A stretch of 58,190 nt of DNA. It comes from Escherichia coli (GTDB lineage Bacteria > Pseudomonadota > Gammaproteobacteria > Enterobacterales > Enterobacteriaceae). The position numbers and the translations under genes are program-made. Below, in pieces: positions 1 through 58,092 of this stretch (the stretch's first letter is position 1; each line of letters begins with the position of its first letter). The DNA lies in the NCBI RefSeq assembly GCF_003334255.1, contig NZ_QOWU01000031.1; one strand, written 5' to 3'. The notes under the pieces were generated by a model. The model did no database searches. It was not told the origin of the DNA and saw nothing but the letters and a program-made list of their open reading frames with translations.

Positions 1-1
1 G

Positions 2-898
2 TGGCTTGCGCAGTGCGGGCTGACGGTGGAGCAACTGGCCAGACAGGTGGAGCCGGAATACACACCGGCGCGAAAAGCTCATCTTTATCACTGCGACCAC
101 CGGGGACTGCCGCTGGCGCTTATCAGCGAAGACGGCAATACGGCGTGGAGCGCGGAATATGATGAATGGGGCAACCAGCTTAATGAGGAGAACCCGCATC
201 ATGTGTATCAGCCGTACCGTCTGCCAGGGCAGCAGCATGATGAGGAATCAGGGCTGTACTATAACCGTCACCGGTACTACGATCCGTTGCAGGGGCGGTA
301 TATTACTCAGGACCCGATGGGGTTGAAAGGGGGATGGAATTTATATCAGTATCCTTTAAATCCACTACAACAAATTGACCCTATGGGATTATTGCAGACT
401 TGGGATGATGCCAGATCTGGAGCATGTACGGGGGGAGTTTGTGGTGTTCTTTCACGTATAATAGGACCAAGTAAATTTGATAGTACTGCAGATGCTGCGT
501 TAGATGCTTTGAAAGAAACGCAGAATAGATCTCTATGTAATGATATGGAATACTCTGGTATTGTCTGTAAAGATACTAATGGAAAATATTTTGCATCTAA
601 GGCAGAAACTGATAATTTAAGAAAGGAGTCATATCCTCTGAAAAGAAAATGTCCCACAGGTACAGATAGAGTTGCTGCTTATCATACTCACGGTGCAGAT
701 AGTCATGGCGATTATGTTGATGAATTTTTTTCAAGTAGCGATAAAAATCTTGTAAGAAGTAAAGATAATAATCTTGAAGCATTTTATCTCGCAACACCTG
801 ATGGACGATTTGAGGCGCTTAATAATAAAGGAGAATATATTTTTATCAGAAATAGTGTCCCGGGATTGAGTTCAGTATGCATACCGTATCATGATTAA
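2..898 (+). CDS. rhsD: Rhs family protein, 3' portion (5' end upstream of window): conserved Rhs core terminus followed by a variable C-terminal toxin domain
   Basis: Reading frame is open from the window start. Translation contains the Rhs core-end signature (YDEWGNQ...[16 protein letters not shown]...YPLNP...DPMGL) followed by an AT-rich, low-complexity-free tail of about 165 aa. Position next to ybbC/mnmH matches rhsD by K-12 synteny (from memory). Confidence 0.85.
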
Positions 899-937
899 TT
901 TTAGTGCTTTTATTAGTAGGGCCTATAAGGAGATTCA

Positions 938-1306
938 ATGAAATATAGTTCAATATTTTCGATGCTTTCATTTTTTATACTATTTGCCTGTAATGAGACA
1001 GCTGTTTACGGTTCTGATGAAAACATTATTTTTATGAGGTATGTGGAAAAATTACATTTAGATAAATACTCTGTTAAAAATACGGTAAAAACTGAAACAA
1101 TGGCGATACAATTAGCTGAAATATATGTTAGGTATCGCTATGGCGAACGGATTGCAGAAGAAGAAAAACCATATTTAATTACGGAACTACCAGATAGTTG
1201 GGTTGTTGAGGGAGCAAAGTTACCTTATGAAGTTGCGGGTGGTGTATTTATTATAGAAATTAATAAGAAAAATGGATGTGTTTTGAATTTCCTACATAGT
1301 AAATAA
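938..1306 (+). CDS. ybbC: Putative Rhs-CT immunity protein, 122 aa, predicted lipoprotein (signal peptide with L-F-A-C lipobox)
   Basis: 122-aa ORF immediately downstream of the Rhs toxin domain, AT-rich. N-terminus [18 protein letters not shown] has a hydrophobic core and lipobox cysteine. Length and position match K-12 ybbC. Confidence 0.75.
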
Positions 1307-2016
1307 TGCTGGCGCTGATGGATGCGGATGGAAACATTGCGTGGAGCGGGGAGTATGATGAGTGGGGCAACCAGCTGAATGAAGAGAACCCGCATCACCT
1401 GCACCAGCCGTACCGGCTGCCGGGGCAGCAGTATGATAAGGAGTCGGGGCTGTACTACAACCGGAACCGGTACTACGATCCGTTGCAGGGGCGGTATATC
1501 ACTCAGGACCCGATAGGGCTGGAGGGGGGATGGAGTCTGTATGCGTATCCGCTGAATCCGGTGAATGGTATTGATCCATTAGGGTTAAGTCCCGCAGATG
1601 TAGCGCTAATAAGAAGAAAAGATCAACTAAACCATCAAAGAGCATGGGATATATTATCTGATACTTATGAAGATATGAAGAGATTAAATTTAGGTGGGAC
1701 TGATCAATTTTTCCATTGTATGGCATTTTGTCGAGTGTCTAAATTAAATGACGCTGGTGTTAGCCGATCGGCGAAAGGGCTGGGTTATGAAAAAGAGATT
1801 AGAGATTACGGGTTAAATCTGTTCGGTATGTACGGCAGAAAAGTAAAGCTATCCCATTCTGAAATGATTGAAGATAATAAAAAAGACTTGGCTGTAAATG
1901 ACCATGGGTTGACATGTCCATCAACAACAGATTGCTCAGATAGATGTAGTGATTATATTAATCCAGAGCATAAAAAAACGATAAAGGCTTTACAAGATGC
2001 TGGCTATCTCAAGTAA
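1306..2016 (+). CDS. ylbH: Orphan Rhs C-terminal module: about 80 aa of Rhs core-end homology followed by a distinct toxin-like domain; may be silent or pseudogenic
   Basis: Begins at a TAATG stop/start overlap with ybbC. The N-terminal 80 aa repeat the Rhs core end ([11 protein letters not shown]...DPIGL...DPLGL), then an unrelated AT-rich tail follows. This is the classic orphan rhs-CT arrangement. Confidence 0.7.
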
Positions 2017-2233
2017 TCTATCAAAGATGATAATATTTATTTTTGCTATTATAATCATTGTTGTTTTATGCGTAATTACTTATCTTTATTTATACAAAGA
2101 TGAATCTCTTGTAAGTAAACATTACATAAACTATATGGCAATACCAGAAAATGATGGAGTTTTTACATGGCTCCCAGATTTTTTTTCCGCACGTAGCGGT
2201 GGATATATCAATATACACAAATGTAGAAGATGA
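1997..2233 (+). CDS. ybbD: Small membrane protein, candidate immunity protein for the orphan Rhs-CT (more likely start at the internal Met near 2027)
   Basis: ORF directly after the orphan toxin module, with one strongly hydrophobic N-terminal helix ([23 protein letters not shown]). AT-rich. Gene name is by position only. Confidence 0.4.
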
Positions 2234-3002
2234 TTATTTTTTTCTTATTTTTCCCTAACAAATGATGATGGGGGTAGGTTTAAGAAAACATTGACAGTGA
2301 GGGCCAGGGAACAAGTGGCGAAAATCGTATCAAAGAATGATCCAGATACAAAAAAAGTGTGGTGTAAATATGGTAAGATACCAGGGCAAGGGGATGGTGT
2401 AAACCTTTTTTTTGTTGGTGAAATTAATGTTACGCATTATTTTATAACAAATATTGGAGCTGGATTGCCTGATGCTTGTGCAGAGTAATTGCTTGAATTA
2501 AGAGTCTATCCCATATCGAAGTCGTCAACTTCGTAGTGAGGAAAAGTAAAATTCCTGACTGAGAAAAGACATGTCGGCTATTGTGTAAAGCCATATAGCT
2601 CAGACGATGAATATCTACTCGTATTCAGTTGTTTATTGAGGGTGAGTTCCGACCCTGAAACAACAAATAAAATGAACAGTCAGAGAGTTTACATAGAATT
2701 GCACTGGTCTTTTACGATATCTGACATTGTGTAATACATATTCAGCCATGCATTAATTAAAATGTTACGTGTTTAATGTGAGTCCCTATCTGAAAATAAA
2801 TAATCCTTCCGGATTAAAATAAATTCTTGCCGGGAAAGAAAGAGGAAATAAACCATTAGCGGAAAACCAGCGGCACGCCAGGGTGACATGCCCCAGTACG
2901 GCGGCCCGATAGTCCAGGGTTCAGCGGGGGTACTGATAGTCGCGCCGACTGCATCGAGAACTCCATACAACTTTTTACGGAACGTCACCTGATAAAATTT
3001 GT

Positions 3003-3410
3003 TCAGTATCGTCTTTTGAGATTCTCAAGGTTATGGAGTAACCAGACAGAACGGACACCACTGTCGGAGATAAAAACCCCCTGTTTACGCAGCTCGTTGC
3101 TGGCCCGGTGCTGACCATGTGTCGGGAAAGCGACGGCGTAATCAACAACAGCCTGTTCAGTTGCCTCATCGGTACGGTTCTTAAGGTTAGGAGCGCGGCG
3201 ACTACGATTAATCTGCGCATCCACACCGCCTTCAGCGACCAGTTCGCGGTAACGATAAAACGTATCACGCGAAACGCCCATGATTTTACAGGCTTTTGAT
3301 ACGTTGCTGAGTTCTTCAGCCAGATTGAGCAAACCGGCTTTGTGTTTGATGACGGGATTGGCAGTATGAAGCATGAGAGTTACCTCTTGTTTTGGATAAG
3401 GATTCGACAC
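3003..3410 (-). pseudogene. ylbG: Transposase-like N-terminal (HTH) fragment, truncated; catalytic domain absent
   Basis: 135-aa ORF with an HTH-like segment (ACKIMGVSRDTFYRYRELVAEGG) typical of IS transposase N-termini. It ends without any DDE/integrase domain, and the downstream frames are broken. Position between the Rhs island and mnmH matches the K-12 ylbG pseudogene (from memory). Confidence 0.5.
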
Positions 3411-3489
3411 TCATATCAAAACCGGTAACTCTCAACCTTTCAAGGCCATGTGTCAGATCAAGTCGCGACTAATACAAATACGTCCCTCA

Positions 3490-4599
<1,110 letters not shown>

Positions 4600-16391: not shown

Positions 16392-16550
16392 CCCTTACCT
16401 TTAAAGCGGATGCGATTTATATCGCATAAGAGTGCAGTACTCATGCCGGATGCGGCATGAGTACCATATCCTTCCTGAAAATCGCGCAAATTCTATATAT
16501 TGCAGAGATCATGTAGGCCTGATAAGCGAAGCGCATCAGGCAATGTTACA

Positions 16551-16576
16551 AAAAAAGCCACGGTATAAACCGTGGC
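16551..16576 (-). terminator. Rho-independent terminator of the allD-allC-allE operon
   Basis: On the minus strand: hairpin GCCACGGT-TTAT-ACCGTGGC followed by TTTTTT, about 45 nt downstream of the allE stop. Confidence 0.65.
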
Positions 16577-16618
16577 AAAATCCAACATAGCTAAAAATAA
16601 TCAGGCGAGTGGTATGAC

Positions 16619-57496: not shown

Positions 57497-57840
57497 TTAT
57501 GTTGGCGTTTTCTATTCAGTATAGAAGTCGGAGCGGCTGGGCGAGATGCGGAAGTTCTGGAATGTTTCTTTTTTTTGGTGATGGTGAACTGATGGTGCCT
57601 GAAGCAATTTGGCTACTTTTGCAATGTGACAAGTTATGGCAGTGCTGACTGGTGGCGAAGAATTTTGACGATTGAGTCATGCAGAAAAAAACGGGTTCAG
57701 CTTCAGTTGATTAAATGAGGAGTGAGAAGTCCGAAACAGGACTCACTGTATAAATAAACAGCTATTTTGTTGAGGAAGGGTAAGATAACGGCGGGTGCCT
57801 GAAGCTTTCCGGTTTCAGGTTTACTCTGAGGTCTGGAAAG

Positions 57841-58092
57841 ATGAAGCCCCAGGAGATATTTCTATCAACCCTGGGGCTGCCACTCCAAACCCGAACAATT
57901 TGGATGGTAGTCCCTTCTTCGCATGGAGGCAATATAAACATGCTGACGAAATATGCCCTTGCGGCAGTCATAGTGCTGTGTTTAACGGTGCTGGGATTTA
58001 CGCTTCTGGTCGGAGACTCGCTGTGTGAGTTTACGGTGAAGGAACGTAATATTGAGTTTAAGGCTGTTCTCGCTTACGAACCGAAGAAGTAG
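57841..58092 (+). CDS. mokE: mok-type overlapping leader frame of the hokE locus (modulator of killing)
   Basis: 83-aa frame that contains the whole hokE frame at its 3' end, which is the arrangement of hok/mok loci. Confidence 0.5.
57940..58092 (+). CDS. hokE: Hok-family type I toxin, 50-aa membrane peptide
   Basis: [50 protein letters not shown]: one TM helix plus the conserved Hok C-terminal region with Cys. Located next to ybdK as in K-12. Confidence 0.9.

What the first reader, a model, noticed from the sequence alone, without database searches (positions are those of the whole stretch)
2773..3410. Truncated transposase-like HTH fragment marking the distal edge of the Rhs island
The 135-aa frame looks like the N-terminal DNA-binding part of an IS transposase but stops before any catalytic domain. 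It sits at the boundary between the AT-rich Rhs accessory DNA and the GC-normal core gene mnmH, as expected for the scar of the event that delivered or rearranged the island.
Basis: partly seen in the sequence, partly recalled or inferred. Interest (0 to 1): 0.3.

Follow-up and report, generated by a model that had tools for sequence, protein, structure and literature searches.

The report
Dead IS481 transposase remnant (ylbG)
This is the already-catalogued E. coli gene fragment ylbG, the decayed front end of an IS481-family jumping gene that has lost its cutting domain and one of its ends, and it sits as the last piece of the variable RhsD island next to the core gene mnmH; it is ordinary.

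Summary
The ORF at 3003..3410(-) is E. coli ylbG; its real start is the ATG at 3374, giving 123 aa. It matches only the N-terminal HTH region of IS481-family transposases (NCBIfam NF033577 positions 2-112 of 284, E=2.8e-25; Pfam HTH_29/28/32).

Intact 1201-bp relatives have 26-bp inverted repeats, 7-bp target duplications and a 346-aa transposase. Against them the window keeps a perfect left inverted repeat (3476-3451), the 5' leader and codons 1 to about 121. A 464-bp out-of-frame internal deletion then removes the whole rve catalytic core. A 68-bp 3' transposase scrap follows (3018-2951). It is fused abruptly to a 32-codon 5' fragment of an rhs gene on the other strand (ylbI, 2855-2950). There is no right inverted repeat.

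The remnant evolves neutrally (8 nonsynonymous to 2 synonymous lineage-specific changes, against 6 to 24 between intact copies). At least 288 of the 2907 genomes that carry it have a frameshift.

It is the last variable element before mnmH. Nothing suggests the IS delivered the island; it records later deletions. Already known; low interest. The one useful point is that the K-12 reference label "putative transcriptional regulator" is probably misleading.

The parts
3451..3476 (-). Left terminal inverted repeat (IRL) of the IS481-family element; outer end at 3476, 13 bp beyond the mnmH stop codon (3490-3492)
   Evidence: 26/26 identical to the IRL of intact copies, TGTATTAGTCGCGACTTGATCTGACA. 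It is the only IR-like site in the window with 7 or fewer mismatches.
3375..3450 (-). IS 5' leader between IRL and the transposase start.
   Evidence: The 102 nt from the IRL outer end to the ATG (3476-3375, i.e. the IRL plus this leader) differ from L004 at 6 positions.
3003..3374 (-). ylbG: transposase codons 1 to about 121 (HTH_29/HTH_28/HTH_32), then 2-3 junction codons and TGA (3005-3003); 123 aa
   Evidence: 92% aa and 96% nt identity to 346-aa IS481-family transposases. Supported by NCBIfam and Pfam. Same coordinates as K-12 b0502.
3010..3018 (-). Internal deletion junction. About 464 bp of the IS are missing (L004 2866-3328, aa about 122-276, the whole rve core). The junction lies in an AAAACG-type microhomology and is out of frame.
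   Evidence: Two BLAST segments overlap by 9 nt. The junction was read directly. The rve domain lies at aa 162-267 of the intact protein.
2951..3018 (-). 3' transposase scrap (about aa 277-299, ILNKFYQVTFRKKLYGVLD), out of frame with ylbG
   Evidence: 81-88% nt identity to intact elements, E=5e-14 to 1e-19; translation.
2855..2950 (+). ylbI: first 32 codons of an rhs core gene with a dead start codon (ATT for ATG), fused at 2950/2951 to internal IS sequence
   Evidence: 79% nt identity over 95 nt to the 5' end of rhsD itself (E=1e-19), and 28/32 aa identical to MSGKPAARQGDMTQYGGPIVQGSAGVRIGAPT. There are hits to the starts of 'RHS element core protein' genes. K-12 pseudogene b4632.
2773..2988 (-). 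71-aa ORF inside the finding's coordinates. It is an artefact: a read-through from the transposase scrap into the antisense of ylbI and its AT-rich leader.
   Evidence: No family hit. The first 12 aa (MTFRKKLYGVLD) match transposase aa 288-299 at 10 of 11 residues after the start codon; the rest is antisense to the rhs fragment.

Best explanation
The feature is a non-functional, immobile remnant of a 1.2-kb IS481-family insertion sequence. It is E. coli ylbG plus an unannotated 3' scrap.

Inferred history:
1. An intact element inserted just downstream of mnmH, left end outward, at the margin of the RhsD accessory region.
2. A microhomology-mediated 464-bp internal deletion removed the DDE (rve) core and shifted the frame.
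3. A second illegitimate deletion removed the last ~200 bp of the IS, including the right inverted repeat, together with most of an adjacent rhs gene. This fused rhs codon 32 (ylbI) to internal IS sequence.

What remains cannot transpose, because it has no catalytic domain and only one end. It has drifted neutrally since. It marks the mnmH-side edge of a variable locus but did not deliver the island.

Shown: homology, boundaries, junctions, missing parts, population distribution and substitution pattern. Inferred: the order of events and the absence of any present function.
For: - Homology to the IS481 transposase covers the N-terminus only.
- Intact relatives (L004, L005, L010, L013-16) are 1201 bp with 26-bp IRs, a 346-aa HTH+rve transposase and 7-bp target duplications: TTTAATG in L013 and ATTTACA in L016.
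- Collinear alignment: window 3477-3010 matches IS 1-467 at 96%, and window 3018-2950 matches IS 931-999 at 81-88%. Nothing matches beyond that.
- The rhs 5' fragment abuts at 2950.
- There is a single IR in the window and in the whole island.
- Neutral drift: 10 ylbG-specific codon changes, 8 nonsynonymous and 2 synonymous. Intact copies differ by 6 nonsynonymous and 24 synonymous changes (omega 0.06). Fisher p=0.0012.
- Of the 2907 of 5426 complete genomes that carry this segment, at least 288 have a T5-to-T4 frameshift that rewrites the last ~22 aa.
- The remnant is absent from about 46% of E. coli genomes, which carry other content at the locus.
- NCBI's PGAP calls it an incomplete pseudogene.
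- The ybbD-ylbG spacer is used as a neutral landing pad.
Against: - The 123-aa ORF is intact in most carriers: 2140 of 2907 are identical over the tested 71 bp.
- The K-12 reference annotates it as a CDS, 'putative DNA-binding transcriptional regulator YlbG'.
- Expression was not tested here. It lies co-directionally downstream of mnmH and I found no terminator between them, so it may well be transcribed.
- The substitution counts are small.
- The 3' scrap is significantly more diverged from the closest intact copy than the 5' part (13/69 against 19/468 mismatches, p=4e-5). The two pieces could therefore come from different or mosaic IS copies rather than from one element.
Confidence: 0.92

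Rival explanations
1. Domesticated or residually active HTH protein. The 123-aa N-terminal transposase domain is expressed and binds the IRs of related IS481-family copies as a trans-acting inhibitor (as truncated transposases such as IS1 InsA, IS911 OrfA or the Tn5 inhibitor do; from general knowledge), or it has been recruited as a host regulator as the K-12 label suggests.
For: - The ORF is intact with complete HTH_29/HTH_32 domains and a native start and leader.
- It is identical in about 74% of carriers.
- It may be read through from mnmH, since no terminator was found.
- K-12 reference product name.
Against: - Substitutions on its branch look neutral (8N:2S).
- About 10% of carriers are frameshifted, and roughly half of E. 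coli genomes lack it.
- Intact copies of the IS are present in only 77 of 5426 genomes, so there is little for it to regulate.
- Many genomes with an intact copy show 2 or more places matching the IS, and one shows 7, so fragments and intact copies appear to coexist. I did not check that the extra places are ylbG.
- The full-text search for ylbG found no functional study in the E. coli papers I opened.
Confidence: 0.06
2. The IS was the vehicle: a composite or one-ended IS481 transposition delivered the RhsD island between ybbP and mnmH, and ylbG is the scar of that delivery.
For: The IS left end is the outermost island sequence. Homology with island-less and T6SS-island strains resumes 12-23 bp beyond it.
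Against: - No second IS end or fragment exists at the ybbP side or anywhere else in the island.
- The island replaces a 704-bp spacer starting 6 bp after ybbP rather than being inserted with a duplication.
- The same locus hosts an unrelated T6SS island without this IS, which points to a recombination hotspot.
- The rhs-IS junction is at an internal IS position, so it is a deletion and not a transposition joint.
Confidence: 0.02

Closest known systems
E. coli K-12 ylbG (b0502) with neighbouring ylbI (b4632)
   Same: Same locus and essentially the same sequence. The window is 99.9% identical to NC_000913.3 from about 526643. ylbG is at 3003-3374(-) and ylbI at 2855-2950(+).
   Different: No biological difference. 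The K-12 reference calls ylbG a 'putative DNA-binding transcriptional regulator' CDS, whereas PGAP calls it an incomplete pseudogene. The analysis here supports the pseudogene/IS-remnant reading and adds the unannotated IRL, the deletion junctions and the 3' scrap.
Intact IS481-family element of Escherichia/Salmonella plasmids and a few E. coli chromosomes (e.g. WP_256878404.1 on E. albertii pEA13_3; some sources label close fragments 'ISSod13')
   Same: 96% nt identity over IS positions 1-467, including an identical 26-bp IRL; same transposase N-terminus (92% aa).
   Different: The window copy lacks aa about 122-276 (the rve core), the last ~200 bp, the right IR and any target duplication. 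I could not check ISfinder, so the element's formal name is not established.
Other decayed copies of the same IS in E. coli islands (L002 next to a T1SS/TolC cluster; L003 next to cnf1)
   Same: Truncated HTH-only fragments annotated 'helix-turn-helix domain-containing protein, incomplete'. L002 also carries an internal deletion (IS 1-416 joined to 1116-1201).
   Different: Different loci, different breakpoints and 81-96% identity; these are independent decay events.

Membership tests
IS481 family insertion sequence | Transposase with N-terminal HTH homologous to the family model | tested here: met
   NF033577 positions 2-112 of 284, E=2.8e-25. The score of 89 bits is below the 224-bit full-protein cut-off, as expected for a fragment. 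Pfam HTH_29/28/32. 92% aa identity to annotated IS481-family transposases.
IS481 family insertion sequence | DDE catalytic core (rve / rve_3 integrase domain) | tested here: not met
   Absent from the window copy. The intact relative has rve at aa 162-267 and rve_3 at 256-326. The deletion removes aa about 122-276 and the remainder is out of frame and cut off at about aa 299. The copy is therefore derived from the family, not a functional member.
IS481 family insertion sequence | Pair of terminal inverted repeats | tested here: not met
   Only the left IR is present (3476-3451, 26/26). No right IR was found in the window or the island at 7 or fewer mismatches. Intact copies have both.
IS481 family insertion sequence | Short target-site duplication flanking the element | tested here: inconclusive
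   There is a 7-bp TSD in 2 of 5 full-length copies examined, L013 and L016. In the window the 7 bp outside the IRL (AATACGT, 3477-3483) has no second copy in window 1-4000, as expected once the right end is deleted.
Stand-alone HTH transcriptional regulator (K-12 product name for YlbG) | Full-length non-IS homologues; reading frame kept under purifying selection | tested here: not met
   1886 proteins hit at E<=1e-10, and only the best 120 are listed. The ten of 123-216 aa that I read are truncated or chimeric transposase N-termini, while complete relatives are 346-aa transposases inside IS ends. The ylbG branch shows 8N:2S against 6N:24S for intact copies. At least 288 of 2907 carriers are frameshifted.
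Stand-alone HTH transcriptional regulator (K-12 product name for YlbG) | Demonstrated DNA binding or a regulon | not testable with these tools
   Of the 17 papers that mention ylbG, the three E. coli papers I opened give only gene lists or landing-pad uses.
Rhs core protein (for the adjacent ylbI fragment) | Conserved N-terminal MSGKPAARQGDM... segment followed by the YD-repeat core | tested here: not met
   Only the first 32 codons are present, 28/32 identical to RhsD, and the start codon is ATT. There is no core. It is a fragment, not a gene.

The most novel reading that the evidence does not exclude
The retained N-terminal HTH domain (YlbG) is made and acts as a chromosomally fixed, trans-dominant repressor of incoming IS481-family copies by occupying their inverted repeats. 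That would help explain why intact copies are rare in E. coli (77 of 5426 genomes) while about half of strains carry ylbG.
Probability: 0.04. Interest if true: 0.35.

Novelty: already known. Interest (0 to 1): 0.07.

Why it matters
It matters little. It is a catalogued E. coli K-12 locus (ylbG/ylbI) in a region already used as a neutral integration site.

The modest value is for annotation:
- The K-12 reference product name 'putative DNA-binding transcriptional regulator' is best replaced by 'IS481-family transposase N-terminal fragment (pseudogene)'.
- The left inverted repeat and the 3' scrap are unannotated.
- The ylbI-IS junction shows that a further rhs gene once lay between ybbD and mnmH and was lost by deletion.

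It also documents ybbP-mnmH as a locus with at least three states: the RhsD island, a short spacer with a dinQ-like gene, and a T6SS island.

Tried and rejected
- I looked for a right inverted repeat or any second IS end in the window and across the whole ybbP-mnmH island, allowing up to 7 of 26 mismatches. None was found.
- I looked for a partner of the 7-bp flank AATACGT. None was found.
- I treated the island-less strain L006 as an 'empty site' for the IS. This was rejected because the rhsD island replaces a 704-bp spacer, so no clean pre-insertion site exists.
- I considered the 71-aa ORF (2773-2988) and the 97-aa ORF (2975-3268) as genes. Neither has a family hit. The first is a chimera over antisense rhs sequence. 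The second is the alternative frame used by the frameshifted alleles.
- The promoter scan of 2400-3700 found no sigma-70-like site. It found one terminator-like hairpin at 2892-2872(-), about the number expected from shuffles.
- I considered a composite-transposon origin for the island and rejected it (see rival explanations).
- I could not name the IS formally because ISfinder is not available. The 'ISSod13' labels on related fragments come from other annotators.

Full report
**What is at the coordinates**

The window's first ~5 kb is 99.9% identical to E. coli K-12 MG1655 from about position 526,643. The gene order is rhsD tail, ybbC, ylbH, ybbD, ylbI, ylbG, selU/mnmH, allS. It matches the NCBIfam IS481-transposase model only over model positions 2-112 of 284 (E=2.8e-25). 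It also matches Pfam HTH_29, HTH_28, HTH_23 and HTH_32, with no catalytic domain.

RefSeq genomes annotate it as ylbG, 'helix-turn-helix domain-containing protein; incomplete; missing C-terminus'. The K-12 reference record instead calls it a CDS, 'putative DNA-binding transcriptional regulator YlbG', at the equivalent of window 3003-3374.

**Full-length relatives**

tblastn against plasmids found 346-aa 'IS481 family transposase' genes at 92% aa identity in E. albertii and E. coli plasmids. The intact protein has HTH domains at aa 11-111, rve at 162-267 and rve_3 at 256-326.

The element is 1201 bp with 26-bp imperfect inverted repeats: TGTATTAGTCGCGACTTGATCTGACA on the left and TGTCAGATCAGGTCTGAGCTAATACA on the right. 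Two chromosomal copies show clean 7-bp target duplications, TTTAATG and ATTTACA.

Complete copies occur in only 77 of 5426 complete E. coli genomes. Fragments occur in 3600.

**Anatomy of the window copy (read on the minus strand)**

- Window 3477-3010 aligns without gaps to IS positions 1-467 at 96% identity.
- The left IR is intact (3476-3451, 26/26). Its outer end lies 13 bp past the mnmH stop codon.
- The homologous start codon is ATG 3374, so the remnant is 123 aa.
- At 3018-3010 the alignment jumps from IS position about 467 to about 931. This 464-bp deletion lies in an AAAACG-like microhomology and removes aa about 122-276, the whole rve core. It shifts the frame, so a TGA follows at once.
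- A 68-bp scrap (3018-2951) encodes ILNKFYQVTFRKKLYGVLD, transposase aa about 277-299. Its identity to intact copies is 81-88%.
- IS homology stops at 2951/2950. From there the + strand carries the first 32 codons of an rhs gene (2855-2950): ISGKPAARQGDMPQYGGPIVQGSAGVLIVAPT. This is 28/32 identical to the RhsD N-terminus, with ATT in place of ATG. It is K-12 pseudogene ylbI.
- The last ~200 bp of the IS, including the right IR, are gone. No other IR-like sequence exists in the window or in the whole ybbP-mnmH interval.
- The 71-aa ORF 2773..2988(-), which explains the finding's lower coordinate, is a read-through from the transposase scrap into antisense rhs sequence. It has no family match.

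**Is it the island edge?**

Yes. GC rises from 0.28-0.38 (1800-2850) through 0.44-0.53 (the remnant) to 0.53-0.58 (mnmH). A strain without the island (L006: ybbP, a dinQ-like gene, mnmH) regains homology at window 3488. A strain with a T6SS tssD/DUF2931 island at the same place (L007) regains it at 3499.

The rhsD island replaces a 704-bp spacer that begins 6 bp after ybbP. The locus therefore behaves as a replacement hotspot, not a simple insertion site. With only one IS end present, and with the rhs-IS joint at an internal IS position, the IS is a passenger that later suffered deletions. It was not the vehicle of the island.

**Dead or domesticated?**

Compared with four intact copies, ylbG has 10 lineage-specific codon changes, 8 nonsynonymous and 2 synonymous. 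Intact copies L004 and L010 differ by 6 nonsynonymous and 24 synonymous changes (omega 0.06). Fisher p=0.0012.

The segment is present in 2907 of 5426 genomes. Of these, 2140 are identical over a 71-bp test stretch, and at least 288 carry a T5-to-T4 frameshift that produces the 132-aa variant seen in protein databases. No promoter-like site was found, and no terminator separates it from mnmH, so read-through transcription is possible.

The literature I opened holds only incidental mentions. The ybbD-ylbG spacer is a standard neutral landing pad. One genomic SELEX study lists an RpoD site upstream of ylbI. I conclude it is a decaying pseudogene. A residual IR-binding or inhibitor role cannot be excluded but is unlikely.

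**Open detail**

The 3' scrap is significantly more diverged from the closest intact copy than the 5' part (13/69 against 19/468 mismatches, p=4e-5). Against a Salmonella variant the two parts are similarly distant (10/69 against 45/470). The ancestor was therefore either a mosaic variant, or the two pieces come from two copies. This does not change the verdict.

**Verdict**

The feature is already known as ylbG/ylbI and is of low interest.

Noticed in passing
window 2855-2950 (+): ylbI: a 32-codon 5' fragment of an rhs core gene (28/32 aa identical to RhsD, start codon ATG changed to ATT) fused directly to internal IS481 sequence. It implies that a further rhs gene pointing toward mnmH once lay here and was lost by deletion.
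   Followed up: yes
L006:3297-4000 and L007:1-4000 versus window <=3488: The ybbP-mnmH interval has at least three alternative contents among E. coli: the 7.3-kb rhsD island (about half of genomes), a 704-bp spacer with a gene PGAP names dinQ (type I toxin) plus a strong hairpin terminator, or a T6SS tssD/DUF2931 island.
   Followed up: partly
window 3072-3076 (A5 on +, T5 in ylbG): A homopolymer-run length polymorphism. At least 288 complete genomes have T4, which frameshifts ylbG after codon 100 and gives the 132/144-aa database variants (P0088, P0103).
   Followed up: yes
window 143-354 versus 1339-1550: A 212-bp direct repeat at 87% identity. The end of the rhsD core is repeated at the start of the orphan tip ylbH, the usual core/tip displacement arrangement of Rhs loci.
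   Followed up: no
window 2624-2806: AT-rich spacer that is 86% identical to a segment lying between a hypothetical gene and the ISAs1 (H-repeat) ydcC pseudogene near pptA, downstream of a vgrG gene, in another strain (L012). This suggests shared accessory DNA between distant loci.
   Followed up: partly
L002:2920-3420; L003:2644-3309: Other decayed copies of the same IS. One is internally deleted but keeps both ends (IS 1-416 plus 1116-1201) beside a T1SS/TolC cluster. One is a fragment beside cnf1 and ISEc16/IS66 debris in a UPEC island.
   Followed up: partly
window 16478-16612; 36254-36330; 57793-57948: Rfam and ARAGORN hits elsewhere in the window: ES036 and STnc480 sRNAs, tRNA-Arg(tct), and a sok antitoxin RNA. 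All are ordinary.
   Followed up: no
H1 (NZ_CP148405.1 1136651-1138728): One strain has an IS1A insertion splitting this same region: the match comes in two pieces spanning 2078 bp for a 1301-bp query.
   Followed up: no
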